Shown here piece after piece: positions 3,001 to 14,119 of a DNA stretch of 64,000 nt. The stretch is taken from IMG/VR virus record IMGVR_UViG_3300045988_112558, positions 28,997 to 92,996 of that record, one strand, 5' to 3'. The position numbers and the translations under genes are program-made. The stretch's first letter is position 1. Every line of letters begins with the position of its first letter. Source of the stretch: a virus. The notes beneath the pieces were generated by a model. The model made no database searches and was not told the DNA's origin. It saw nothing but the letters and a program-made list of their open reading frames with translations.

Positions 3001-6000
3001 TGTTATAGCTACCGGAATAGCTTACGATATGTACAGGTATTCAGGTCAAAACTCGAATCTTAATCTGTATCCTAATTATCCGTATAATGATTTATCGGAT
3101 GACTCTTTTAATTACGCAACTGAAAAAAGGGTATCGTTTATAACCCACCCATTTTTCAGAAGAGGAAACGTTTGGTATGCATTTAGTTCTCCTGATATTT
3201 ATTTCAATAAACCTGAAACCCCTACGGAGGTAGCTATAGAAGGTTTTATAAGGGGAATGTCTGTAGGAAACTTTGATGAGGTTGAAGATCATCCCAAATG
3301 GACGATATTAGGAAAACAATCATATAAGATGGCGGCCACATTAGCCAACATCGAATCCACGGCCACCATAGCTTCTCAGATAGCAGAAGAGCTTATGAAC
3401 CGTTCTACGTCTGCGTATATAGGTGTGATAGGAAATATCAATATGGCAATGATCTTTGCTTCAATGATTGCCACCATATCTGATACGCTTGCCAAAAGAC
3501 CGGTATTGTATGGTAAGTACAGATATGATTGGCTTACGACATTCATAAACAATGGCCCAAGAAGGAATCATGCTTTTTATTATACATCTGTAGGTTACTA
3601 TAATAGCATGATGGGCTTTGATGATACGGCTCCATACGAACAAAACAGATTAAGAGGATTGGCTAACACCAAGAGTCTTAAATCAGGTATGTACCCCATA
3701 TCCGATCCGTCTACTACATCATCTTGGGTTACTGGAGAAGATGTAGATGATGATAACCAAAACGCTTCAAAAGATTTTTTGTTTATAAATAACATAGATA
3801 GGGAATCTTCCATGTTCTTATCTTTTGGAGATCCGGGAGAAAAGGATCCTGATACAAGCATCTTAAATTCAAAGTATCTTGTATCGTATCCTATGCAGGC
3901 CCAGGTATATGATACAAGTCGTATCCATGACCCTGTTATCATGGCTTCTGATGCCGGATCTAAAGAGTCTTTTGAAAGGACGAAGATGTTGTCTTATATC
4001 TGTTCTCCGTATATGAAGCTTATGCGATACAGGCCCGATCAGTATGGAGCTATAGAAGATATAAAATGGATATCAGTAGGAGGGTGTGGATTCTTCCAAG
4101 GAGGGAAGCAACCTTTGTTTGGCGGTGACACCTACATATCGAGGTTTTCCATGAAGCGAAAATTCCCATTTTTTTATAATACTGCTTTTGGTATAGGGGA
4201 TATGATACCATTTGCTTACAATGATTACCGGAATGTTGGATTCCCTAAGTATTTCGTTAATTACGATACTGGAGAAGATATGCTTGAGCATACTGACAAC
4301 GAACGTTTTAATAGCTGGACATCATCAAGCAAAGGAACGTATTCTTTTTATCCAAATAGAAAAAGTTTGTATAATTTAAATGGTGAAAATGAGGCTAAGA
4401 AATATGTGGATGGTAGATTTTATCTGTGGTCTTATGGTATTCCTCAATTCCTTGTAGAATCGGAAATAAACTGCAATTTCCGATTAGAAGGAGTAGAGCC
4501 TCATGAATGGTTTTATCCGGCTCATGGTGATTTTGCTTGGTGGACACAAGAAAAGAACGTGTCTATCCATAGGGACAATGATTACAAGATAAGTCCTATC
4601 TACTCATCAAGAATGACGTTGACACCTAATGTATTGCCGGCGACATACGAACGTCGTTTTTATGATTGTGCTTACCAGCGACCTAATGGTGTTATATGGA
4701 GTAGGGCTGACGTATCTGAAAACAGTCAAACAGATCCGTGGCTGACATACAAACCTATGGACTATCATGAGTTCCCAACCAGCAACGGTAAGCTTATTCA
4801 CATGAAGCGTATTGAATCCGATCAGATTCTTGTCAGGTTTGAGGACCAGGTTTCACTCCATAACGCCATAGACGTAATCAAGGAGCGCACCTCCCCAGGG
4901 CAGGCCGAGATGGGCACCGGCGGTCTGTTCGCGTCCCGGCCTCTGGAGTACAACACGACCGACCTTGGTTATTCTGGAACCCAGAGTACTGAAATAATTA
5001 GTTCAGAATTTGGTCATTTCTGGGTAGATACTAAAAGAGCACAGGTGTTTATGACCGATCCGAACGGACGTAATCTTAAGGAACTTAGTGTAGGTATCAG
5101 ACATTGGCTTAAGCGTCATCTTCCGTTTAAGATTCTTAGATACGGAATAACTAATATCTTGACCGGTGCAGAAATGACAGAAGAAGATACGGATAACAAA
5201 TTTATCGGTCTTGGTCTGTCTCTTGGATGGGATAATAGGTATAAGAGGGTACTTATCACGAAAAAAGATTATATACCTGTTAAGAACCCGGCATATTATA
5301 AATATGATGGTGGAAGGTTCTTGTATAATGAAACAGAGGTGTTGTCAAACGATAAGGAAATATCCTTAAAAGACGAACAGTATTTCAAGGACGTGTCGTT
5401 CACTATCGGATATTCGTGTCTGAAGCAAGAATGGATATCGTATTACTCATTCTGCCCTGACTATTATATAGAGCAGCAGCAATATTTCCAGACAGGAATA
5501 AACTTCCCGGCATCAGATGAAGAAGGTGGTCTATGGAGCCATTTGCTGACGAATAAAAGCTTCCAAACATTTTATGGAACAACATATCCATTTATATTAG
5601 AAGTGCCGATAAAAGAGAAATATAACGGTTCTACGTTGGCTTCTGTAGAATACGAGCTTGATGCAAGGAAATACGTCGATGATGTGAATTACACTCTTGA
5701 CAGGAAAGTAGGTTTAGATACGATAACTATCTACAACGACACAAACAACTCAGGTGAAATTCATCTTGTTCCAGAAGAAAAGAATAATTTAGCGCAACGT
5801 ATATCGTATCCGAAGATCGTAGGCGACTATACTGAGGTCCTGGATACTGAGGTATATAGAAGACATAAGTTAAATGACTTCTTCAACAGGGTTGACGATG
5901 ACCGGTCAGAGACCCCTATTTGGATCAAGGACGATAACGATATAAATAAGTCAGTTAATCCTGATTCTCTTAATTTCAGACGGTCATGGCTGGATAGGTT

Positions 6001-6288: not shown

Positions 6289-6349
6289 CAGTGGTGATGG
6301 AAGGTGATACTTCGGTTTGTGTCATAGGTTCGAGTCCTATATTTTTCAT
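6289..6349 (+). ncRNA. tRNA-like element 1: a degenerate copy with a 5' box GTGGTGATGG, an anticodon-like hairpin and an intact T-arm, but no D-arm or acceptor stem.
   Basis: T-arm ATAGG-TTCGAGT-CCTAT (6324-6340) followed by ATTTTTCAT. Hairpin GATAC/GTGTC (6306-6323) with an 8-nt loop. The 5' box GTGGTGATGG (6291-6300) is shared with unit 3. Confidence 0.4.
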
Positions 6350-6460
6350 GTAAGAAAAATTAGATCAGTTGGTAGATCAAAACCTCCTTTCATATCAAAA
6401 CACATTTCAGGTTTTCCCTGTTTTAATAAAATATATAGATGGTGAGGAGTTCGGTTACTT

Positions 6461-6533
6461 CGAAAATTAGCGTAGTGGATAACGCGGTATTCTGTAAAAA
6501 TACTTTTCATTGGTTCGAATCCAATATTTTCAT
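6461..6533 (+). tRNA. tRNA-Tyr (anticodon GUA), 73 nt, with a C1·A72 mismatch at the top of the acceptor stem.
   Basis: Hand-folded cloverleaf. Acceptor CGAAAAT/ATTTTCA (6 of 7 pairs). D-stem GCGT/ACGC with loop AGTGGATA. Anticodon stem GTATT/AATAC with loop CTGTAAA (U33, GUA, A37). Variable loop TTTTC. T-arm ATTGG-TTCGAAT-CCAAT. Discriminator T, no encoded CCA. Confidence 0.65.
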
Positions 6534-6589: not shown

Positions 6590-6681
6590 GTGATGGGGTT
6601 AGTTACTTCGAATTTAGCTCAGATGGATAGAGCGATACTCAGTTAAAGTATAGGTCGATGGTTCAAATCCATTATTTCATT
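6590..6681 (+). ncRNA. tRNA-like element 3: well-formed D, anticodon (GUU, Asn-like) and T arms but a non-pairing acceptor stem and A33 in the loop, preceded by the 5' box GTGGTGATGG...TTACTTCGAA. Either a degenerate tRNA-Asn or a tRNA-mimic ncRNA.
   Basis: D-arm GCTC-AGATGGATA-GAGC (6617-6633). Anticodon stem ATACT/AGTAT with loop CAGTTAA (6635-6651). T-arm GATGG-TTCAAAT-CCATT (6657-6673). The flanks TCGAATT / ATTTCAT pair at only 4 of 7 positions. The 5' box at 6592-6611 is shared with units 1 and 2. Confidence 0.4.
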
Positions 6682-6800: not shown

Positions 6801-8435
6801 ATGGGAAAGTTTAACAAAAAGGATGAAGGTGTTAAACCTACGATCGTGAATCACATGGGAGAGAAGGCGTATAAGCCTAACGCAGAAGAAGAGTTGGTAT
6901 CTACGGTAATGACTACCATGTTGTCTGATTCTTATTATGAGAAAGAAAAAGACAAGGTGAACAGGATTAAGGACCTTATGGATCAAGTAGATCCATATTT
7001 CGCAGCACAAACAGCATTGTATGTCAGGAAAGAAGGAAAGCTTAGGTCGGTAACGCATCTTATGGCTTCTGTCCTTGCCAGCAAAGCATCGGGTAAGGAA
7101 TGGGCTTCAAGGTTCTATAATAAGATCGTTATGCGTCCTGATGATATGAGCGAAATCCTTGGCTGCTATGCGGCTCTTAACGACAAAAATCCAAAGAAGT
7201 TAAGAGGAATATCCAGCGCTATTAAGAAAGGATTTAAGACGGCTTTGGAAGGTCTTGATCCGTATCGGATTGATAAGTATAAGATGGACAGTAGGGTCAT
7301 TACTATGGTTGACTTAGTAAACTTATTTCACCCTAAAGGCAATCAGGCTAACAAAACGGCTTTCCAGTACCTTATAGAAGGTCGGTCTTTGTCTGGATTA
7401 TACGAAAGCAAGATTCTTGAAAAAGAAATGTCTAAAGCCGGACAGGACAAGAAAGACAATAAGGAAAAGAAAGAAGCTTTAGGTGACGCTATTCGGGACG
7501 TGGTTTCTAATGTAAAAGGTATGCCTATTTTTAATATGGTTCGTAACCTTGTAAACATAATCAAATACGCGCCTGATCAAATAGATGAAGTTTGTAGGCA
7601 GCTTACAATAGAAGAGAAGGTGCTTAATTCGAAGATGCTTCCTTTCCGTTTTGCTTCAGCTTTCAAAGAGGTTGAAAATATAGGCACTGATGATTCCGAA
7701 AATGATATTGTATTTGAGTCGGATAAAAAACGTGCTAAATTAACAGCGCGTAATAAACATAAGATTTTAGATGCGTTGGAGAAAGCCATAACCATCTCCT
7801 GCAAGAACCTTCCGGTATTGGAGGGGCGGTCGGCTATCCTGATTGACCACTCTGGCTCTGTACGTGGAGATATGGGAGGATCTTCTGAGGTGTCTGCCTT
7901 TAGCAAAACAAGTACGGCTGTCATTGGTAACTTATTTGGCTGTATGATTGCTTCTGTGCTTCCTGACGTATTTATTGGTATGTTTGGTGACGAACTTATC
8001 AATTACGAATATGATAGAAGTAAAGGTGTTTTATGGAATAACAAAAAATCTTTTACTGCCGGAGAAGAATGCGGTGGTGCCACTGAAAACGGTCTTTTTG
8101 CATTCTTGTATAAGTGCGTTAAAGATAAGATCAAAGTAGATAACTTGTACGTTATTTCAGATATGCAGATAGGAGACGGTGAATCTGTTGTATGGGAGAA
8201 AAGTTCCAGTTATGGATATGGTAAATTCGCTGAACTTTTGAAAGGGTTTAAAAAAGTGAATCCAAATTGCAAAATCGTTTCTATTTCTATTAAAGGATAT
8301 GGAAGTGAGATGTTTTACAGAGGATCTAATATCTTGAACATAGCTGGCTGGTCAGAATCTATTTTCGATGTTATTAACAGCAAATTCTGCGGATATAAGA
8401 ATATGATTGAAGAAATTAAGAAAATAAAAATATAA
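6801..8435 (+). CDS. rsr: Ro60/Rsr ortholog: TROVE domain plus a C-terminal von Willebrand A domain with a MIDAS motif.
   Basis: N-terminus VNHMGEKAYKPNAEEELVSTVMTTMLSDSYY matches the Ro60 signature NxxGxxAY...YY. MIDAS DxSGS is present as ILIDHSGSVRGD. Length 544 aa is typical of Ro60. Flanked by terminators 6741-6771 and 8495-8532. Confidence 0.8.
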   Translation: MGKFNKKDEGVKPTIVNHMGEKAYKPNAEEELVSTVMTTMLSDSYYEKEKDKVNRIKDLMDQVDPYFAAQTALYVRKEGKLRSVTHLMASVLASKASGKEWASRFYNKIVMRPDDMSEILGCYAALNDKNPKKLRGISSAIKKGFKTALEGLDPYRIDKYKMDSRVITMVDLVNLFHPKGNQANKTAFQYLIEGRSLSGLYESKILEKEMSKAGQDKKDNKEKKEALGDAIRDVVSNVKGMPIFNMVRNLVNIIKYAPDQIDEVCRQLTIEEKVLNSKMLPFRFASAFKEVENIGTDDSENDIVFESDKKRAKLTARNKHKILDALEKAITISCKNLPVLEGRSAILIDHSGSVRGDMGGSSEVSAFSKTSTAVIGNLFGCMIASVLPDVFIGMFGDELINYEYDRSKGVLWNNKKSFTAGEECGGATENGLFAFLYKCVKDKIKVDNLYVISDMQIGDGESVVWEKSSSYGYGKFAELLKGFKKVNPNCKIVSISIKGYGSEMFYRGSNILNIAGWSESIFDVINSKFCGYKNMIEEIKKIKI

Positions 8436-8958: not shown

Positions 8959-9374
8959 AAGAAAAAGAATTTGATTTTGTGATATATCCACTAAAGTTGA
9001 TTATCACCGTAGGGTTAGATTACAAAACATTGTGTGATCGTTTTGAGAATGCAGAATTGGATCATGAAGGAGAGTGGGGAGATGAAGGCGATTTAGATTC
9101 AGAAGTCTCTTTTATGAATCTTGTTCGTGATAAGGGGGATGATAGAGCTTTTAAGTTATTATGGAACTTTCAAAGTGAGAATGATATGACTATACAAAAC
9201 ATATGTCATGAATCATTTCATGCAGCTATGTCGGTATGCCAACATTGTAATATGTTTCTTGGTTTTAAGGTGGGAGAAGATGAACACGCAGCTTACATAG
9301 CTGGATTTGTTGGTAACTGCGCAGGTGAAATGTTTGGATTCTTAGAGGAAGAAAAAGATGGCAAAGAAGAATAA
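8955..9374 (+). CDS. Small HExxH zinc-metallopeptidase-like protein (paralog 2).
   Basis: HESFH followed by EDEHAAYIAGF. Its start overlaps the upstream stop in an ATGA arrangement (translational coupling). Confidence 0.6.
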   Translation: MKEKEFDFVIYPLKLIITVGLDYKTLCDRFENAELDHEGEWGDEGDLDSEVSFMNLVRDKGDDRAFKLLWNFQSENDMTIQNICHESFHAAMSVCQHCNMFLGFKVGEDEHAAYIAGFVGNCAGEMFGFLEEEKDGKEE

Positions 9375-12339
9375 ATCAGATTGGAAGCCCTCAGAAAATA
9401 TCCTAAAATATTTGAAATCGTGGGAAAAGTTTGAGCCTGAATTATATGACGATAAGAAGGGAAATATAACAATCGGGTACGGATTTCATCTTCCTCATCT
9501 TCTTAAAAAATACAAGAATGGTATAACAGTAGAAGAGGCCGATAAGGAATTTGAAGGTGTAGTTAATACGTTTGTTCCGGAATTTATACGAAGAACTCCT
9601 AATTTCAAGAATCTAAACAATAATCAGCGAGATGCTTTGTTTAGTTTGTTTTACAATACAGGAGGACCAGAGTATTCTAAAAGCCCAATGCTTTTCAAAT
9701 ACCTTAAAGAAGGTGATTATGATAAGGCAGTGAAAGAAATAAATCACAATAAAAACGAGAAAGGTATGGGCGGCCAGAAGAAGCGCCGTGCCTTCGAGCG
9801 CCTGGTGTTCACTACGCCGACAGACCAGCCCTGGACGGTGGATGATGACAGTAACTATGTCTTGATTGAAGATAAGCCTGTAGAGAACGAATCTATAGAA
9901 AAAAATATTAATGATTCAAAGTATGAAGACGCTCGTCATGTAGCCGCAAAATACGGTTATACAGGTTATATAGGTGGAAGATATGACGGAAATAAGGTCA
10001 GGGTATCTGATTCGAATATGAAATCAGTTGGCATATCCAATAACGCTGATCCTGATAAGTGGTATGAATCCGTTAATCCAATATTAGACACTGATCCTAT
10101 TAGTTTAATTGCCGATTTTATTCCTACTGTGAAACGAATGTTGGATCCTAATAGGGAGCGATCCGGAGAAGATACAGCCACAGATTTTGAAGAAAAAATG
10201 TGGAAGGCTTACACGGATGGAGATATAAGTAGATTACCGGCAAGCAAGTATCGTTTTGATGACGATGATGATAATGCTCAGTACGTGGGATTGCCTCAAG
10301 AACAAGCCATTTTGATACAATCTTTATTAGATAAAGAATATATAAACAACATGCTTGACGAGGCATATAAGAATGCTGATGAAAAAAGTAAACTAAAAAT
10401 AAGAGATTACAAGAAGGTCCTTGATAAACTAAATAAAAATATATTTGAAAATCCAGGAAAATGGATTTTAGTAAATGAAGGCGTAAGTCCATTTAGAGAA
10501 GAAGTATATGGTGACAATTTTGAAAAAGTGAACGAAGCTTCCGGATTAGGTGCGTTGAAGAATTTCAGTGTAAGATGGGATCCTGATGCCGGTATGTTAG
10601 ATGTGAAGGATGATTATGATTTTAGTCGAAAGAAGATAGCGGAAGACATCATACCGGAAAGGGATGTCCCTCTTAGAATAAGGGAACGTATCAAATACGA
10701 TCCTAAGAAAGGTAGTGTGCTTCGAAATAATGACAAGGCTTTACCTAAAAGGTTTGTAAGGAAATACGAAGAAGGTGGAGAAGCTAAGTATTGGTGGAGC
10801 AATCCAGACAAGAGAGATGAGGTTATAAAAAGACAAGATGACAATGGGGAGTGGCAAGAAAAGAGGAGGAGATTACTTGAACAAGCTCATTCAGATCTTG
10901 AAAAAGGTGAAATTGATGAGGACGAATTTAGAAGAATAGCCGGGTTTTCAAATAGTGAAATAGGAAATTTGATAATATCCAAAGATGGAAACGGGGAAGA
11001 AATAGGAGCTATTATAAATAATCTTTTAGATTCCATAGATATAGATAAGGTAAAAGAGGGAATTGATGATGCTAAAGAAGAGAGGGAGAACAAGAGCAGG
11101 GAGGATGCTTACCCTTATAAGTTAATGGCCGAATCTTTGCTTACACTTGCGGACGTTGCTTCTTCTACACCAGGAATGCTCAGATTATATAACAAAATGG
11201 GATTAAGGTTGATGCCGATTCTTAAGACAATAGCAGAAAGTAGCAAAATACAAACCATAGCTGGATTGTCTAATGTGGGTGTTGACGGAAGCCAGATTGC
11301 CTTAGATCCAGAAGGAGATAATACTTTTAACTACGCCGGCATACTTGGTGGAGCCGCCGAGGCAATAGGAGGAACGAATGTGATAAGGAATATGTCTTTT
11401 ATGGGAAGATATGGGAATAGGGTAGATGATGTACTTGATATTGCAAATCCTATTATATCAACATTAGGTGTAGTAGATGATGTAAGTAAGATGAAAGAAG
11501 GTGGAGTAATTGGCAAGCAGCGTGAAGCATATGAATACTTTACTAATAAGAGAGGTATGTCCAAGATACAGGCGCTTGCTATCATAGGTAATCTCATGGC
11601 TGAATCCGGTCTTAAAGATGACATATATGGAGACAATAGAACATCATACGGCATACAGCAATGGCATAATGAACGCATGGATAAGTTATTCAAGCATGCC
11701 AAAAAGAAAGGTCATTCTACACCCACATTCAAAGACCAACTTGAGTTCTTGGCTGACGAATACGAAGGGAAAACCGGATATTCTAATTTCTTATACACAA
11801 GAAAAGGAAAAGAAGGACCAGGGTATTACAACTACAGCCGGCAGGATTTTATGAACGCCGATAACCTTAAAGATGCTGTAGTAGCTTGGAACCAAGGAGC
11901 AGGACGTCCTCATAAGAGTGTTATAAGAAATGATGACCGTTATAACTATGCTATGGAAGTTGCTAAAAATCTTGGTTTGGAAATTGAAGAAAATTCCGTA
12001 TCTTCGTATGGCCAAATGGGATTCGGAGATGATGGTGAAATAGCAGCATCGGTAACACTTCCAGAGGTAGAAGTGGCAGCCGCCCTCCCTAACCCAGAAG
12101 CCCCGTCCCAGGAGGGACAGTCCGAGGAAGAGAGATTCCGTACATGGACTGAAACGTATGGTAAGGACATCATAAATCATTTACTGACGTTAGACGGGAA
12201 AAAGGATGGTGATGACAGTGATTATAATATGATGTATAGACAGAATCAAAAAGAAAGCGAAGAGGATAAGAAAATGGCTTTGATTAATGCCGTGCTTCCC
12301 AATATTCAGCTTCGCATTAAAGGCGTCACTGACAATTAG
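9358..12339 (+). CDS. 993-aa lysin with two peptidoglycan-hydrolase domains: an N-terminal GH24 (T4-type) lysozyme domain and a C-terminal lysozyme-like/lytic-transglycosylase-like domain. Probably virion-associated.
   Basis: N-terminus EPELYDDKKGNITIGYGF with NQRDALFSLFYNTG matches the GH24 catalytic E-D-T region. C-terminus IQALAIIGNLMAESGL...SYGIQQWH matches a GNxxxES...GxxQW lysozyme-like motif. The start overlaps the preceding gene by 17 nt. Confidence 0.7.
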   Translation: MAKKNKSDWKPSENILKYLKSWEKFEPELYDDKKGNITIGYGFHLPHLLKKYKNGITVEEADKEFEGVVNTFVPEFIRRTPNFKNLNNNQRDALFSLFYNTGGPEYSKSPMLFKYLKEGDYDKAVKEINHNKNEKGMGGQKKRRAFERLVFTTPTDQPWTVDDDSNYVLIEDKPVENESIEKNINDSKYEDARHVAAKYGYTGYIGGRYDGNKVRVSDSNMKSVGISNNADPDKWYESVNPILDTDPISLIADFIPTVKRMLDPNRERSGEDTATDFEEKMWKAYTDGDISRLPASKYRFDDDDDNAQYVGLPQEQAILIQSLLDKEYINNMLDEAYKNADEKSKLKIRDYKKVLDKLNKNIFENPGKWILVNEGVSPFREEVYGDNFEKVNEASGLGALKNFSVRWDPDAGMLDVKDDYDFSRKKIAEDIIPERDVPLRIRERIKYDPKKGSVLRNNDKALPKRFVRKYEEGGEAKYWWSNPDKRDEVIKRQDDNGEWQEKRRRLLEQAHSDLEKGEIDEDEFRRIAGFSNSEIGNLIISKDGNGEEIGAIINNLLDSIDIDKVKEGIDDAKEERENKSREDAYPYKLMAESLLTLADVASSTPGMLRLYNKMGLRLMPILKTIAESSKIQTIAGLSNVGVDGSQIALDPEGDNTFNYAGILGGAAEAIGGTNVIRNMSFMGRYGNRVDDVLDIANPIISTLGVVDDVSKMKEGGVIGKQREAYEYFTNKRGMSKIQALAIIGNLMAESGLKDDIYGDNRTSYGIQQWHNERMDKLFKHAKKKGHSTPTFKDQLEFLADEYEGKTGYSNFLYTRKGKEGPGYYNYSRQDFMNADNLKDAVVAWNQGAGRPHKSVIRNDDRYNYAMEVAKNLGLEIEENSVSSYGQMGFGDDGEIAASVTLPEVEVAAALPNPEAPSQEGQSEEERFRTWTETYGKDIINHLLTLDGKKDGDDSDYNMMYRQNQKESEEDKKMALINAVLPNIQLRIKGVTDN

Positions 12340-12373
12340 AACAATTATTTTATTTCTCATATTAATAAAGCGA

Positions 12374-12443
12374 AGCCGGATTTGAGACTCGTTATGCGGA
12401 TACCGAAGGTTGAAGAACGATATCAAGATAATCCGGCTTTTTT
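12374..12443 (+). terminator. Terminator-like structure after the lysin gene: a 9-bp stem AGCCGGATT/AATCCGGCT enclosing a 47-nt insert, then a T6 tract.
   Basis: Stem 12374-12382 / 12430-12438, TTTTTT at 12439-12444. The long insert may form internal sub-helices. Confidence 0.5.
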
Positions 12444-12600
12444 GTGCGATTTCGTGAAGGATGGAACTATCATCGCCTTGGTTTAACAGAACAGACCTAC
12501 GTACCTCCACTGTCCTGACGGGCATGGGAGCCCGTCTCGCCTACCAGCCTGCCTAATTCTCCACTGGCTACCTAATATAACTATTAACGTCACTCCATCG

Positions 12601-12623
12601 CCTATCTCCTTTCAGTCGATAGG
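12601..12623 (+). repeat. Hairpin repeat copy 1 (stem CCTATC/GATAGG, loop TCCTTTCAGTC).
   Basis: Hand alignment. The 11-nt loop is near-identical to copies 2 and 3, while the stem differs but still pairs (covariation). Confidence 0.55.
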
Positions 12624-12658
12624 TTCAGTCGTTTTTTAAATGTTATATGTTCTTTCGC

Positions 12659-12679
12659 ATCGTTCCCTTCGGTCACGAT
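12659..12679 (+). repeat. Hairpin repeat copy 2 (stem ATCGT/ACGAT, loop TCCCTTCGGTC).
   Basis: Same loop as copy 3. Stem sequence unrelated but complementary. Confidence 0.55.
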
Positions 12680-12750
12680 ACTCAATCCTTTAACACAATT
12701 AGGCAAACAATACAATAGACGGAAAAAGTAATTTGTTAATCTGTTCACTC

Positions 12751-12775
12751 ACTTAACTCCCTTCGGTCGTTAAGT
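12751..12775 (+). repeat. Hairpin repeat copy 3 (stem ACTTAAC/GTTAAGT, loop TCCCTTCGGTC).
   Basis: 7-bp stem with a loop identical to copy 2. Confidence 0.55.
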
Positions 12776-12999
12776 TCATTCACTGTAAACAATTATATGA
12801 ATAAATGGTAAAGTATATAAAATAATATAAATGATATAATGGGTAAGATCATTGAAAATGGTCTTAATATTAAGGAAAACGGAGACTATTCATAGGCGTA
12901 GTTTTAATTCAAGATTTGTTGTCCCACCACTGACGGTCAGGAGGTTACGTTCAGAGTCGTTTTCCCGTCTCTTATCCAAACCGTCATAAAACAAAAAAA

Positions 13000-13034
13000 C
13001 CTTGTATCCTATTTCTCTCAAACCGGATACAAGG
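13000..13034 (+). promoter_or_regulatory. Perfect 10-bp hairpin (CCTTGTATCC/GGATACAAGG, 15-nt loop) immediately upstream of a promoter. Either a terminator or an operator-like element.
   Basis: Seen directly in the sequence. Followed by CTGTGCATTTTCTTC and the -33 box. Confidence 0.4.
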
Positions 13035-13049
13035 CTGTGCATTTTCTTC

Positions 13050-13080
13050 TTTGAGCGTATGATAAAAAACCATATCTTTG
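13050..13080 (+). promoter_or_regulatory. Bacteroidetes-type promoter (-33 TTTG, -7 TATCTTTG) for the gene at 13100.
   Basis: TTTG at 13050-13053 and TATCTTTG at 13073-13080, 19-nt spacing. An A10 tract lies in the 5' UTR. Confidence 0.55.
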
Positions 13081-13099
13081 CACTAAAAAAAAAACCAAT

Positions 13100-14119
13100 A
13101 TGGACACAAAGTTAAAAGAAATAACAGATCCTCACAAGTTACACGACAAGCTCTTTAAGAAAGAGCAGGTCTCTCCGATAGAAGTTATATACAATAGCTT
13201 CAGCAACTTAGGGTATAATGTAGTACGCCGTCCAGCCGGTCAGTGTTTAGGCAATTTGAGATATTTTAATCTATTTTATGACAAACATACTCATCATTTT
13301 TATCAGAAAGACAGGAAGTTGAGATATTGTAGCAATTTTCTCATATCTGATTATTGGAAAGATAGAGTGCGATGTTTCATAGTTTGGAACTTTGGTTTTG
13401 GAAGATTCTTCCCATACAATGACTTCATAGAGGCTATGGTTTATGACTATCTTCGATATGGGAGAAAGTCAGTTCCTTATTTTAAAAGCGTGCAAGAAGC
13501 TGAAGAAAAGTGTGTAAGGTTCTATATCCGGTCTCAGATAGATATGCTCCGTAAGGAAGGATATGCTGCATACCGGGCTAAGTTTAAGGAAGAACGTCCT
13601 CAGTATTTCATCGGAGACGATAGGACAGTGTTTAGATGCCTTGATAGCTCTTTAAAAAGAGAAGAGAAGATTGCTGCATGCGTAGCTCACAAAAGGGCTT
13701 TAAAAGAAGGGATAATGGCTTCCTTCATCAATCACCTTAAGAAATATCCTACCACCTTGTATTCGTGGTTCTCGTCAGAGGTAGACAGCGAAGGAAAGAA
13801 TAGGATTTGTCTATCTGAAAAAGCCATTAATTATCTTAATAAGAGACTGGTTCGCAATGGATTAAAGGCTCTTTCTGCATCATATCTTTTTAGAACGTTT
13901 AGAAAAATGGTGAAGACCTTGTTCGGTTTCAATGTCAGGTCGTTCTTGAATAGATGTCTGATGTCTGTTTCAACAGAAGAGGTTTTAACCAAATCTATGA
14001 AGAAAGTAGTTTCCAAGACAGTGCTGTTTTTGTACAAGAGAGCGCTTAAGAACTATCGCCGGGCATGCGGTTTTAAGTACGACCCTGATTCGGGCGGTTT
14101 GTCTGTCATACGTCCCTGA
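13100..14119 (+). CDS. Basic, aromatic-rich hypothetical protein (339 aa), possibly nucleic-acid binding.
   Basis: ATG start with an upstream consensus promoter. K/R/F/Y-rich, no recognised motif. Confidence 0.55.
   Translation: MDTKLKEITDPHKLHDKLFKKEQVSPIEVIYNSFSNLGYNVVRRPAGQCLGNLRYFNLFYDKHTHHFYQKDRKLRYCSNFLISDYWKDRVRCFIVWNFGFGRFFPYNDFIEAMVYDYLRYGRKSVPYFKSVQEAEEKCVRFYIRSQIDMLRKEGYAAYRAKFKEERPQYFIGDDRTVFRCLDSSLKREEKIAACVAHKRALKEGIMASFINHLKKYPTTLYSWFSSEVDSEGKNRICLSEKAINYLNKRLVRNGLKALSASYLFRTFRKMVKTLFGFNVRSFLNRCLMSVSTEEVLTKSMKKVVSKTVLFLYKRALKNYRRACGFKYDPDSGGLSVIRP

What the first reader, a model, noticed from the sequence alone, without database searches (positions are those of the whole stretch)
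12601..12775. Three hairpins with an identical 11-nt loop (TCCYTTCRGTC) on unrelated but complementary stems
Copies at 12601-12623, 12659-12679 and 12751-12775 keep the loop sequence while the stems (CCTATC/GATAGG, ATCGT/ACGAT, ACTTAAC/GTTAAGT) differ completely yet stay base-paired. This is textbook structural covariation. It points to a selected stem-loop element such as a protein-binding RNA or ssDNA hairpin, a hairpin-type promoter, or a terminator class for a phage polymerase. Only the first is followed by a T-tract. The irregular spacing and differing stems argue against a CRISPR array.
Basis: seen in the sequence. Interest (0 to 1): 0.65.

Follow-up and report, generated by a model that had tools for sequence, protein, structure and literature searches.

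The report
Hairpin trio in a phage noncoding cassette
The three hairpins are real and under selection; they fold best on the opposite strand and belong to a strongly conserved ~660-base noncoding region that human-gut crAss-type phages inherit and duplicate together with an uncharacterised basic protein gene, most likely as a structured RNA whose function is unknown.

Summary
TCCYTTCRGTC occurs exactly three times, at 12607, 12664 and 12758, each flanked by a different inverted repeat. Chance predicts 0.08 matches in 64 kb. The motif occurs nowhere else in the window or in 150 kb of the 95%-identical phage csAssE-Sib, so it is not a genome-wide promoter or terminator class.

The "11-nt loop" is itself structured. 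Positions 3-9 and 4-8 covary across relatives. The invariant bases read best on the minus strand: stem, GA, 2 bp, GNA triloop, 2 bp, GA, stem. That is two G·A mismatches (probably tandem sheared pairs) around a CCGAAGG or GCGAAGC-type mini-hairpin. Fold energies, G·U-type variants and local GC skew all favour the minus strand.

The hairpins lie in a ~660-nt noncoding region that varies 3-5 times less than codon third positions. This region always precedes a 339-aa basic protein from a tiny, unannotated, phage-only family. The leader and gene move and duplicate as one unit.

My best reading (confidence 0.4) is a minus-strand structured noncoding RNA with three repeated docking hairpins. The main rival is single-stranded DNA hairpins acting as initiation signals. 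No Rfam, Pfam or PDB match was found. Function is unproven.

The parts
12601..12623 (-). Hairpin module 1. Minus strand: CCUAUC-GA-CU-GAA-AG-GA-GAUAGG.
   Evidence: minus -9.2 vs plus -7.8 kcal/mol; 33.9 bits. Most relatives have CUGAAGG, which is a U.G pair on the minus strand and a C.A mismatch on the plus strand.
12657..12681 (-). Hairpin module 2. Minus strand: GUAUCGU-GA-CC-GAA-GG-GA-ACGAUGC. The stem is 7 bp on the minus strand (one U.G pair) and only 5 bp on the plus strand (12659-12679).
   Evidence: minus -11.8 vs plus -5.0 kcal/mol; 34.5 bits.
12751..12775 (-). Hairpin module 3. Minus strand: ACUUAAC-GA-CC-GAA-GG-GA-GUUAAGU.
   Evidence: minus -10.8 vs plus -6.8 kcal/mol; 39.2 bits. 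Stem variants at 12754, 12757 and 12771 and the inner-pair variant at 12765 all give G.U on the minus strand and C.A on the plus strand.
12487..12600 (-). Conserved block that is G-rich on the minus strand (GUAGG / GGCAGG repeats), 54% GC. The plus-strand GC skew is -0.34, opposite to every gene of the phage.
   Evidence: conserved GUAGCCA...GGCAGG...GUAGGCGAG in clades A-C; pi 0.039.
12781..12900 (.). AT-rich (25% GC) segment that is nevertheless constrained, lying between the hairpins and the conserved block at 12911-12940.
   Evidence: pi 0.023.
12911..12940 (-). Conserved block AAGATTTGTTGTCCCACCACTGACGGTCAG with a small 4-bp hairpin, CTGA-NNN-TCAG (12930-12940). The loop varies among clades.
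12993..13034 (-). T2, an intrinsic-terminator-like hairpin on the minus strand. It has a 10-bp stem (13000-13009 / 13025-13034), an inner GUUU/AAAU helix, a short purine-rich apical loop (GAGAG here; a GNRA tetraloop in four other clades), and then U7 (12993-12999).
   Evidence: The stems covary. The apical loop is GCGA, GAGA or GUGA (GNRA) in L086, L089, L095 and L121. L089 and L092 fold only on the minus strand (-17 vs -6 kcal/mol). T2 is present even in relatives with 23-25% identical proteins. pi is 0.003.
13107..13114 (-). Candidate Bacteroides-type -7 box (TAACTTTG) on the minus strand, overlapping codons 3-5 of the ORF. It is the only host-type promoter box found that could feed minus-strand transcription into T2 and the hairpin region.
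   Evidence: Equivalent boxes lie at +12 in L095, at +17 in L123 and at the start codon in L086. Inferred, not shown.
13050..13080 (+). Host-type promoter of the ORF: TTTG (13050-13053), 19 nt, TATCTTTG (13073-13080).
   Evidence: The -7 box is conserved in four of the five clades scanned (window, L086, L089, L095); the scan found none in L090. The Bacteroidetes sigma-A consensus TTTG / TAnnTTTG is taken from established knowledge.
13100..14119 (+). Gene for a 339-aa basic protein (pI 9.8) of unknown fold. It is the constant partner of the noncoding leader.
12373..12445 (+). T1, the plus-strand terminator of the lysozyme gene. Its 10-bp stem covaries in clade B and is followed by a T-run. Its long loop holds a similar module on the plus strand: GA-UACC-GAA-GGUU-GA (12399-12413). 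T1 is probably backbone rather than cassette, because it is absent from clades C and D.
   Evidence: -20.5 kcal/mol, z -2.85; pi 0.024.

Best explanation
The three hairpins are repeated structural modules of a roughly 0.55-0.65 kb noncoding RNA read from the minus strand, antisense to the surrounding late operon.

Each module is a 5-7 bp stem of arbitrary sequence. It is capped by a fixed unit: two G.A mismatches (probably tandem sheared pairs), two Watson-Crick pairs, and a GNA triloop (5'-GA NN GNA N'N' GA-3'). Such caps are compact and stable, and they suit recognition by shape together with a few fixed bases. Three of them on one RNA would give multivalent docking sites.

The most plausible ligand is the 339-aa basic protein encoded next door. 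Its gene is always preceded by a homologous leader and is duplicated together with it.

Transcription would start at a divergent host-type promoter overlapping the ORF start (13114-13107). It would pass the terminator/attenuator T2 and end at the bidirectional terminator T1.

Shown: the hairpins, their covariation, the strand bias, constraint over the whole region, and co-inheritance and co-duplication with the gene.

Inferred: that the region is transcribed, that the molecule acts as RNA, and that the neighbouring protein binds it.
For: 1. Structure. Across 20 distinct module variants from three clades, GA, G..A and GA are invariant. Eight of 9 pairs show changes on both sides, 87.8% of cells are paired, and the covariation score is 0.607 against 0.258 in shuffles (0 of 500 as high); slid registers give 35-46% paired. 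The inner pairs occur as C-G, G-C and A-U (positions 3-9) and as C-G, U-A and U.G (positions 4-8).

2. Strand.
- RNA fold energies are -10.8, -11.8 and -9.2 kcal/mol on the minus strand and -6.8, -5.0 and -7.8 on the plus strand.
- In 74 clade-A variants, non-Watson-Crick cells are C.A on plus (G.U on minus) at 5 positions (65 cells), against 2 singleton T.G on plus.
- Over 17 distinct hairpins the minus strand has 8 G.U and 6 mismatches, and the plus strand 3 G.U and 11 mismatches.
- In clade B the outer stem of site 3 shows GUUUCG/CGAAAC, GUUCCG/CGGAAC, and an intermediate that pairs only on the minus strand.
- Plus-strand GC skew of 12487-12780 is -0.24 to -0.34, whereas every gene has positive skew on its sense strand.

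3. RNA-level signature nearby. T2 is a terminator on the minus strand, capped by a GNRA tetraloop in four clades and followed by a U-run. It has compensatory stems, and in L089/L092 three G.U pairs let it fold only on that strand.

4. Constraint. pi is 0.018-0.039 across 12373-12900 and 0.003 for T2. Codon third positions of the flanking genes give 0.10-0.15, and codon positions 1+2 of ORF339 give 0.018. The region is not coding: all frames contain stops, and most relatives carry -1 or -2 indels.

5. Link to the protein. Homologues at 83, 60, 45, 25 and 23% identity all have a 540-1100 nt noncoding gap upstream containing T2. Clade C sits in a different gene context that is empty in csAssE-Sib. 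Two genomes carry both cassettes 36 kb apart.
Against: - No transcript data are available.
- No canonical Bacteroides -7 box lies inside 12340-13040 on either strand. Minus-strand expression therefore needs read-through of T2, which is itself a terminator.
- A similar module lies on the plus strand inside T1 (12399-12413).
- In the most distant relative (L123) the G-rich part and its single GA-GC-GACA-GC-GA hairpin are on the same strand as the ORF.
- Nine of 74 clade-A variants have AAA instead of GAA in module 2.
- G.T, tandem G.A and GNA triloops are also stable in DNA, so strand preference does not prove RNA.
- Long-range helices predicted for the whole region have little support.
Confidence: 0.4

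Rival explanations
1. The hairpins act as single-stranded DNA. Minus-strand hairpins are extruded or exposed during unwinding and serve as initiation signals. These could be a primase single-strand initiation site or an auxiliary origin with the neighbouring protein as initiator, or hairpin promoters of the N4 type.
For: - The minus-strand cores are textbook DNA mini-hairpins. CCGAAGG is the mini-hairpin of RSF1010 ssiA, GCGAAGC (clade C site 1) is the canonical extraordinarily stable d(GCGAAGC), and CCGGAGG (clade B) resembles the GCGGAGC of N4 virion-RNAP promoters (PMC13037366; sequences).
- The stems of 5-7 bp and 3-nt loops match N4 promoter geometry.
- There are three sites, as in N4.
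- An AT-rich constrained segment lies next to them.
- A similar module sits on the opposite strand about 200 nt away, facing outward (12399-12413).
- Epsilon-group phages encode minimal replication machinery (PMC7886860).
Against: - There is no GC-skew switch at this position; the skew changes at about 17 kb and 110 kb of csAssE-Sib, following gene orientation.
- No RepB'-like or T7/N4-like polymerase fold or domain was found in the protein or in the large ORFs of the window.
- The invariant GA/GA mismatches are not part of the described ssi or N4 hairpins.
- Several common variants introduce G.T pairs, and the cap shrinks to 1 bp plus GUGA in clade D. Both are easier to accept for RNA.
- The neighbouring T2 behaves as an RNA terminator.
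- Constraint covers 660 nt, not only the hairpins.
- Two diverged copies coexist in one genome, which is unusual for origins.
Confidence: 0.2
2. The hairpins function on the plus strand. They would be part of a read-through 3' UTR of the lysozyme gene or a long 5' leader of the 339-aa gene, acting as a cis-regulatory RNA with C(UNCG)G-like loops. The first hairpin would act as a terminator.
For: - All neighbouring genes are on the plus strand, so the region is likely to be reached by read-through.
- Sites 2 and 3 read C-UUCG-G, and clade variants read UCCG and UACG, which belong to the UNCG family.
- Site 1 is followed by T6.
- In L123 the equivalent G-rich element is on the ORF strand.
Against: - UNCG closure fails in TCGCTTCGCTC (C.C) and TCACTACGTTC (C.U), whereas the pairing 3-9 / 4-8 fits all variants.
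- On the plus strand the invariant flanks would be U.C / C.U mismatches and the loop a UNC triloop. Energies are 1.4-6.8 kcal/mol worse.
- Common variants are C.A mismatches on plus.
- T1 is a good plus-strand terminator upstream of the region.
- The ORF has its own promoter downstream of the whole region, so the hairpins are not in its 5' UTR.
- T2 does not fold on plus in L089/L092.
Confidence: 0.12
3. The repeats are double-stranded DNA binding sites (operators, iterons or a centromere-like array) for the neighbouring protein or a host factor. On this view the hairpin potential is incidental.
For: There are three copies of an 11-bp core in 170 bp, upstream of a basic protein whose best structural matches are winged-helix-like fragments. 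Copy number varies, with 4 copies in L105.
Against: A duplex site would not need flanking inverted repeats of unrelated sequence at every copy. It would also not need compensatory changes inside the core (C-G, G-C and A-T at positions 3-9) or strand-asymmetric G.T-type variants. The three spacings (57 and 94 bp) are irregular.
Confidence: 0.07
4. The copies are a chance or neutral relic, for example local duplications of a small palindrome with no function.
For: None beyond the small number of copies in one genome.
Against: - 0 of 100 shuffles reach 3 matches.
- The hairpins are retained in clades A-C, with a modified form in clade D, over protein divergence down to 45% identity.
- pi in the hairpins is 5-8 times lower than at codon third positions.
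- Compensatory substitutions are present.
Confidence: 0.01

Closest known systems
GNA-triloop mini-hairpins in initiation signals: d(GCGAAGC), RSF1010 ssiA (CCGAAGG), N4 virion-RNAP hairpin promoters (GCGGAGC / GAA loops)
   Same: On the minus strand the cores are CCGAAGG, GCGAAGC, CCGGAGG and CCGUAGG. Each is a C-GNA-G unit closed by G-C pairs on top of a 5-7 bp stem (review PMC13037366). There are three sites in a short stretch, as for the N4 early promoters.
   Different: An invariant GA/GA mismatch pair separates the mini-hairpin from the stem. No cognate RepB'-type primase or T7-like virion RNAP was detected. The location is mid-genome, inside a late operon, rather than at an injected end or a skew-defined origin. 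The variants and the neighbouring GNRA-capped terminator lean towards RNA.
Protein-sequestering or scaffold RNAs with a repeated loop motif on variable stems (CsrB / RsmY / RsmZ type)
   Same: Several hairpins in one noncoding RNA keep the apical motif while the stems differ. Copy number varies between relatives (3 or 4). This is the working analogy for multivalent binding.
   Different: The motif is a structured cap, not a single-stranded GGA loop. The presumed ligand is a phage protein of unknown fold, not CsrA. Nothing shows sequestration. This analogy rests on my own knowledge of these RNAs.
Lambdoid nut boxB hairpins bound by arginine-rich N proteins
   Same: Both are short phage RNA hairpins whose purine-rich GNRA-like apical fold is read by a small basic phage protein. 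Both lie near terminators.
   Different: boxB is a single hairpin with a pentaloop placed upstream of the terminators it overrides. Here there are three hairpins downstream of T2, there is no boxA, and the protein is 339 aa with no similarity to N. The boxB comparison rests on my own knowledge.
Type III toxin-antitoxin cassettes (ToxIN): RNA repeats, terminator, protein gene
   Same: Both are compact mobile cassettes with a repeated RNA element, a terminator and a protein gene. Diverged paralogous cassettes coexist in one genome.
   Different: There are no tandem direct repeats. The modules are on the strand opposite to the gene. The protein is twice the size of known toxins and matches no ToxN, CptN or PADLOC model.
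Kink-turn / K-loop motifs (tandem sheared G.A next to a helix, bound by L7Ae-family proteins)
   Same: Invariant GA opposite GA abuts a short helix capped by a small loop. Clade B/C modules carry a second GA/GA step (GAAUC...GUGA).
   Different: There is no 3-nt bulge, so the defining kink geometry is not encoded. No L7Ae-like protein was identified.

Membership tests
N4-type DNA hairpin promoter | Hairpin with a 5-7 bp stem closed directly by a 3-nt purine-rich loop | tested here: inconclusive
   Stems are 5-7 bp and there is a GNA triloop on the minus strand. However, two G.A mismatches and 2 bp lie between them.
N4-type DNA hairpin promoter | A cognate virion-packaged single-subunit (T7-like) RNA polymerase encoded by the phage | tested here: not met
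   No Pfam polymerase domain was found in the four largest virion ORFs of the window, and there is no DFDxD motif. None is annotated in csAssE-Sib. Only the window's ORFs were scanned directly.
N4-type DNA hairpin promoter | Sites lie just upstream of early genes near the first-injected genome end | tested here: not met
   The sites lie between late or structural genes in mid-genome. No ORF follows on the minus strand.
Plasmid/phage single-strand initiation (ssi) signal, RSF1010 ssiA type | Hairpin containing a CCGAAGG-type mini-hairpin on the template strand | tested here: met
   The CCGAAGG core is present in modules 2 and 3 on the minus strand (PMC13037366).
Plasmid/phage single-strand initiation (ssi) signal, RSF1010 ssiA type | A dedicated primase (RepB'-like) or a demonstrated origin at the site | tested here: not met
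Intrinsic (rho-independent) terminator class | GC-rich hairpin followed directly by a U-tract on the transcribed strand | tested here: not met
   Only copy 1 has a T-tract, and it starts 8 nt after the stem. The terminator scan found 0 sites in 12200-13200. T1 and T2 are the terminator-like elements, not the three hairpins.
CRISPR array | Identical direct repeats of 24-48 nt separated by unique spacers of similar length | tested here: not met
   Only 11 nt are shared, the stems differ, and the spacings are 57 and 94 nt.
Any Rfam family (including Y RNA / YrlA, HEARO, ROOL, GOLLD, riboswitches, ribozymes) | Covariance-model score at or near the gathering threshold | tested here: not met
   There is no hit at gathering threshold in the window except two tRNAs. 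In 12300-13150 at E <= 10 there are only two chance-level hits, at 22 and 16 bits. A weak YrlA hit lies elsewhere, at 6297-6396.
Type III toxin-antitoxin | Tandem direct RNA repeats upstream of, and on the same strand as, a ToxN/CptN/TenpN-family endoribonuclease | tested here: not met
   There are no tandem repeats. The modules fold on the opposite strand. There is no Pfam or PADLOC hit.
Kink-turn | 3-nt bulge followed by tandem sheared G.A / A.G between a canonical and a non-canonical helix | tested here: not met
   GA/GA is present and invariant, but the internal loop is symmetric (2 x 2) and no 3-nt bulge occurs in any clade.
Integron attC site | R''/L''...L'/R' boxes (RYYYAAC...GTTRRRY) with extrahelical bases, next to an integron integrase | tested here: not met
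   Only module 3 (ACTTAAC / GTTAAGT) fits the R-box consensus. Modules 1 and 2 do not. There are no L boxes, and no integrase is annotated nearby.
Structured noncoding RNA gene (generic) | Conserved, non-coding, with compensatory base changes and strand-specific G.U tolerance | tested here: met
Structured noncoding RNA gene (generic) | Evidence of transcription: promoter, terminator, or reads | tested here: inconclusive
   Bidirectional terminator-like hairpins bracket the region (T1, T2). The only candidate promoter (13114-13107, minus strand) lies upstream of T2. No expression data could be consulted.

The most novel reading that the evidence does not exclude
The leader and the 339-aa protein form a previously undescribed phage ribonucleoprotein module. 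It would consist of a ~0.6-kb structured RNA with three GA/GNA-capped docking hairpins and a dedicated protein of new fold. The module spreads and duplicates as a cassette within abundant human-gut crAss-type phages, and diverged paralogous pairs coexist in one genome. That pattern is expected for cognate RNA-protein systems such as toxin-antitoxin, anti-defence or RNA-scaffolded machines.
Probability: 0.2. Interest if true: 0.8.

Novelty: new variant of a known kind. Interest (0 to 1): 0.55.

Why it matters
Epsilon-type crAss-like phages are among the most abundant viruses of the human gut, and most of their genes and all of their noncoding DNA are unexplained. This work finds about 660 nt of noncoding sequence that is as constrained as protein-coding positions. 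It contains a clearly defined repeated structural module and is tied to a protein family with no known relatives. The leader and gene behave as a movable, duplicable unit.

If the region is an RNA, it would add a new large structured RNA and partner protein to the short list known from phages. If it is a DNA signal, it would point to how phages that lack their own DNA polymerase start replication or transcription.

Either way, the finding gives a compact, testable target: three 25-nt hairpins with six invariant bases.

Tried and rejected
- **Rfam.** Gathering threshold on the whole window and E-value mode on the region found nothing relevant.
- **tRNA-like or Y-RNA idea.** I considered this because a Ro60/TROVE gene lies 4 kb upstream. 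I rejected it because there is no YrlA/Y_RNA signal at the hairpins, and a weak YrlA hit sits next to the Ro gene instead.
- **Recoded stop codons or a hidden ORF.** All three stops are used by long ORFs. All six frames of the gap carry stops. The in-frame continuation past the lysozyme TAG is not kept in clade B. The 48-aa minus-strand ORF is broken by -1/-2 indels in most relatives.
- **Genome-wide promoter or terminator class.** Rejected because the motif is unique to this locus.
- **Main replication origin.** The GC skew does not switch here.
- **IS, transposon ends or integron attC.** All hairpins lie on one side of the gene. There are no terminal repeats or target duplications at the clade-C insertion. 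No transposase or integrase domains were found.
- **K-turn and hammerhead-like readings of GA...GA.** No 3-nt bulge and no core motifs are present.
- **Long-range helices from single-sequence and alignment folding.** Support was weak and I did not use them.
- **Population covariation by mutual information.** It is confounded by linkage, so I used it only for the hairpin pairs.
- **More distant loci.** Viral-contig scans for P0017 and P0018 and the bacterial-genome scan found none. One pattern scan returned two chance coding hits, L103 and L118.
- **Literature.** I found no description of this element or of csAssE-Sib.
Full report
**1.

The three hairpins are at the stated coordinates with the stated sequences. 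The degenerate 11-mer TCCYTTCRGTC matches exactly three times in the 64-kb window, all within 162 nt. Dinucleotide-preserving shuffles give 0.08 matches on average, and none of 100 reaches three. A script that asks for the motif plus flanking complementarity finds only these three sites in the window. It also finds only the three orthologous sites in 150 kb of the closest sequenced genome. A covariance model of the module gives the same picture: 34-39 bits for the three sites (which were in its training set) and at most 16 bits elsewhere.

**2. Where the window comes from**

The region is 94.9% identical to phage csAssE-Sib (OR575929.1), a 151-kb human-gut phage. The gap is unannotated there. 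That genome has muzzle and ring proteins of crAss-like phages, two TnpB genes, a diversity-generating retroelement, a Ro60/TROVE gene and many tRNAs. Gene starts carry the Bacteroidetes TTTG / TAnnTTTG promoter. In size and content it fits the epsilon group of crAss-like phages. That group is reported to lack both the RNA-polymerase block and a DNA polymerase (PMC7886860). I found no polymerase domain or DFDxD motif in the large virion ORFs of the window.

**3. The setting**

The hairpins lie in a 760-nt gap between a tail-lysozyme gene (9358-12339) and a 339-aa ORF (13100-14119).
- The gap is not coding. All frames carry stops, all three stop codons are in normal use, and close relatives differ by -1/-2 indels across the only sizeable ORF.
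- It is strongly constrained. Among 77 distinct close relatives, nucleotide diversity is 0.018 in the hairpins, 0.02-0.04 across 12373-12900, and 0.003 in the hairpin at 13000-13034. Codon third positions of the two flanking genes give 0.10-0.15, and codon positions 1+2 of the 339-aa ORF give 0.018.
- The functional unit is therefore the whole region of about 660 nt, not just three stem-loops.

**4. The "loop" is structured**

Diverged relatives came from homologues of the 339-aa protein. Their motif variants are TCGCTTCGCTC, TCACTACGTTC, TCCCTACGGTC, TCCCTCCGGTC and TCCTTTCAGTC.
- Positions 3 and 9 change together (C-G, G-C, A-T), and so do positions 4 and 8 (C-G, T-A).
- Position 6 is free.
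- T1, C2, T5, C7, T10 and C11 are fixed.
- In an alignment of 20 distinct modules, the invariant columns on the minus strand are GA, G.A and GA.
- For the structure stem / 2x2 loop / 2 bp / triloop, 8 of 9 pairs show double changes and 87.8% of cells pair. The covariation score is 0.607 against 0.258 +/- 0.03 in shuffles (0 of 500 as high), and slid registers give 35-46% pairing.
- In clade D (protein 45% identical) both copies have changed together to GA-C-GUGA-G-GA, which is one pair and a GNRA tetraloop.
- In clades B and C, modules 1 and 3 lack the simple outer stem. They carry a longer irregular helix with a second GA/GA step instead (ACC-GAAUC-GA-CC-GAA-GG-GA-GUGA-GGU).

**5. Which strand**

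On the minus strand the invariant bases make chemical sense. GA opposite GA gives two G.A mismatches, most likely tandem sheared pairs. The pairs CC/GG (or GC/GC, AC/GU) close a GNA triloop. On the plus strand the same bases would be U.C / C.U mismatches around a UNC triloop. Four lines of evidence point to the minus strand.
- RNA fold energies are -10.8, -11.8 and -9.2 kcal/mol on the minus strand and -6.8, -5.0 and -7.8 on the plus strand.
- In 74 clade-A variants, the non-Watson-Crick cells at paired positions are C.A on plus (G.U on minus) at five positions, four of them at appreciable frequency. Only two singletons go the other way. Module 2 gains two pairs on the minus strand through a U.G pair. 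Clade B shows GUUUCG/CGAAAC, GUUCCG/CGGAAC, and an intermediate that pairs only on the minus strand.
- Over 17 distinct hairpins, the minus strand has 8 G.U and 6 mismatches, and the plus strand 3 G.U and 11 mismatches.
- The plus-strand GC skew of 12487-12780 is -0.24 to -0.34, whereas every gene block of this phage has positive skew on its sense strand.

An alternative plus-strand reading as C(UNCG)G tetraloops fits UUCG, UCCG and UACG. It fails for the two variants whose closing pair would be C.C or C.U.

Two caveats apply. Nine of 74 variants have AAA rather than GAA in module 2. A related module (GA-UACC-GAA-GGUU-GA, with a covarying A-U / U-A pair in clade B) lies on the plus strand inside the terminator T1 at 12399-12413.

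**6. The bracketing hairpins**

T1 (12373-12445) is a plus-strand terminator for the lysozyme gene, and its stem is rebuilt by compensatory changes in clade B.

T2 (13000-13034) looked like a hairpin with a conserved loop. Folded on the minus strand it is a 10-bp stem, an inner GUUU/AAAU helix and a short purine-rich apical loop, followed by seven U. The apical loop is a GNRA tetraloop (GCGA, GAGA, GUGA) in four clades and GAGAG or GAGAA in clades A and B. The stems covary between clades. In L089/L092 three G.U pairs let it fold only on the minus strand (-17 against -6 kcal/mol). T2 is present even upstream of the 23-25% identical homologues.

T2 is therefore an RNA-level terminator for minus-strand transcription coming from the ORF side. 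A Bacteroides-type -7 box on the minus strand overlaps the first codons of the ORF in the window (TAACTTTG, 13114-13107). Equivalent boxes occur in L095, L123 and L086, and clade B has a near-consensus box. This predicts a divergent RNA of about 110 nt ending at T2 and, with read-through, a long RNA covering the hairpins. No canonical promoter box lies inside the gap on either strand. Expression of the hairpin region is therefore inferred, not shown.

**7. The link to the protein**

The 339-aa protein is basic (pI 9.8). It has no hit in Pfam, PHROGs, PADLOC or PDB sequences.

Every homologue whose upstream sequence is available has a long noncoding gap in front of it:
- 83% identity, same context (L090);
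- 45% identity, same context, 560 nt (L095);
- 23% identity, 540 nt (L121);
- 25% identity, 1096 nt (L122-124).

The 60%-identity group (clade C) sits in a different place, between a lysis-module gene (DUF6808) and a 292-aa structural gene. Compared with csAssE-Sib, which is empty at that junction, about 1845 bp (leader, ORF and a 38-nt tail) replace about 40 bp, with no repeats at the borders. Two metagenomic genomes carry both the clade-A and the clade-C cassette, 36 kb apart. One clade-B genome has a fourth module made by duplication of module 3. The leader and gene therefore travel and duplicate as a unit.

**8. Interpretation**

The best-supported reading is a structured noncoding RNA on the minus strand. 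Its three capped hairpins would be repeated docking sites, most plausibly for the co-inherited basic protein. I put this at 0.4.

The strongest rival, at 0.2, is that the same minus-strand hairpins act as single-stranded DNA.
- For it: CCGAAGG is the mini-hairpin of RSF1010 ssiA. GCGAAGC is the classic ultra-stable DNA mini-hairpin. GCGGAGC-type hairpins with 5-7 bp stems are the N4 virion-polymerase promoters (PMC13037366). An AT-rich constrained segment adjoins the hairpins.
- Against it: there is no skew inflection and no cognate primase or polymerase. The GA/GA step is absent from those systems. G.U-type variants are tolerated. T2 behaves at the RNA level. Constraint covers the whole region.

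A plus-strand cis-regulatory RNA (0.12), duplex binding sites (0.07) and chance (0.01) fit the data less well.

**9. Comparison with known systems**

No Rfam family matches. The element shares features with GNA mini-hairpin initiation signals, with multi-hairpin protein-binding RNAs of the Csr/Rsm type, with boxB/N, with type III toxin-antitoxin cassettes and with K-turn-like GA motifs. It fails at least one defining feature of each (see the membership table). I found no paper describing it. Long, abundant noncoding RNAs of unknown function have been noted in another crAss-like phage, phi14:2 (bioRxiv 10.1101/2020.03.07.982082).

I rate it a new variant of a known kind: a structured noncoding element with repeated protein-docking hairpins. 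It is tied to a new protein family, and its function is still open.

Noticed in passing
window 6297-6396 (+), next to 6461-6533, 6608-6681 and 6801-8435: There is a weak Rfam YrlA (bacterial Y RNA-like) hit of 29.2 bits, E 0.0017, below the gathering score of 69. It lies immediately upstream of tRNA-Tyr, tRNA-Asn and a 544-aa TROVE/Ro60 (Rsr) gene. A phage Ro60 with its own Y-like RNA and adjacent tRNAs inside the virion-protein block would be worth its own look.
   Followed up: partly
window 13107-13114 (-) with 12993-13034 (-): A minus-strand Bacteroides-type -7 box overlaps codons 3-5 of the 339-aa ORF. Together with the minus-strand terminator T2 about 110 nt downstream (GNRA-capped in several clades), it predicts a small divergent or antisense RNA across the ORF's promoter and 5' UTR. 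The box recurs in L095, L123 and L086, and T2 recurs in all relatives.
   Followed up: partly
L143 + L166 (ERZ824978 NODE-78) and L155 + L182 (ERZ779855 NODE-10): Two phage genomes carry two diverged copies of the whole leader-plus-gene cassette (about 68% nucleotide identity in the ORF), 36 kb apart. One copy follows the tail lysozyme gene and the other follows the lysis module. csAssE-Sib has only the first.
   Followed up: yes
L105, oriented coordinates about 4320-4520: A clade-B relative has a ~95-nt tandem duplication that adds a fourth hairpin module. The two copies differ by one base in the outer stem (GUUCCG/CGAAAC vs GUUCCG/CGGAAC).
   Followed up: partly
window 12373-12445 (+): The lysozyme gene's terminator has an unusually long (47-nt) structured loop. 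The loop contains a plus-strand copy of a GA-(4 bp)-GAA-GA module (12399-12413). Its ACCGAAGG is also exactly complementary to CCTTCGGT of hairpins 2 and 3 on the same strand.
   Followed up: partly
window 12337-12486 (+): The lysozyme ORF ends in TAG, and the frame stays open for 48 more codons to TAA at 12484, giving a protein-like sequence. Clade B has indels here and the phage uses all three stop codons, so read-through coding seems unlikely. It was not excluded.
   Followed up: partly
L123 3070-3400 and 3485-3496 (+): In the most distant relatives (protein 25% identical) the upstream gap is 1.1 kb. It is G-rich on the ORF strand, with G-quadruplex-like runs (GGGGAGGGGAAAGGGGAGAGGG) and GUAGG repeats. 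It has one GA-GC-GACA-GC-GA hairpin on that strand, which is the opposite orientation to the window, while T2 keeps its orientation.
   Followed up: partly
window 6608-6681 vs L001 3233-3306: The second tRNA is called tRNA-Asn (GTT) by ARAGORN in the window, but the orthologous gene is annotated tRNA-Lys in csAssE-Sib.
   Followed up: no
L090 / P0002 versus window ORF 13100-14119: The clade-B protein is mosaic. Its N-terminal ~130 residues resemble P0009 (59% group), while the rest is nearly identical to the window's protein. This suggests recombination inside the gene, with the leader type following the N-terminal part.
   Followed up: no
window 12751-12775: The stem of hairpin 3 (ACTTAAC / GTTAAGT) happens to fit the integron attC R''/R' consensus (RYYYAAC / GTTRRRY). 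Hairpins 1 and 2 do not and no integrase is near, so I took this as coincidence.
   Followed up: yes
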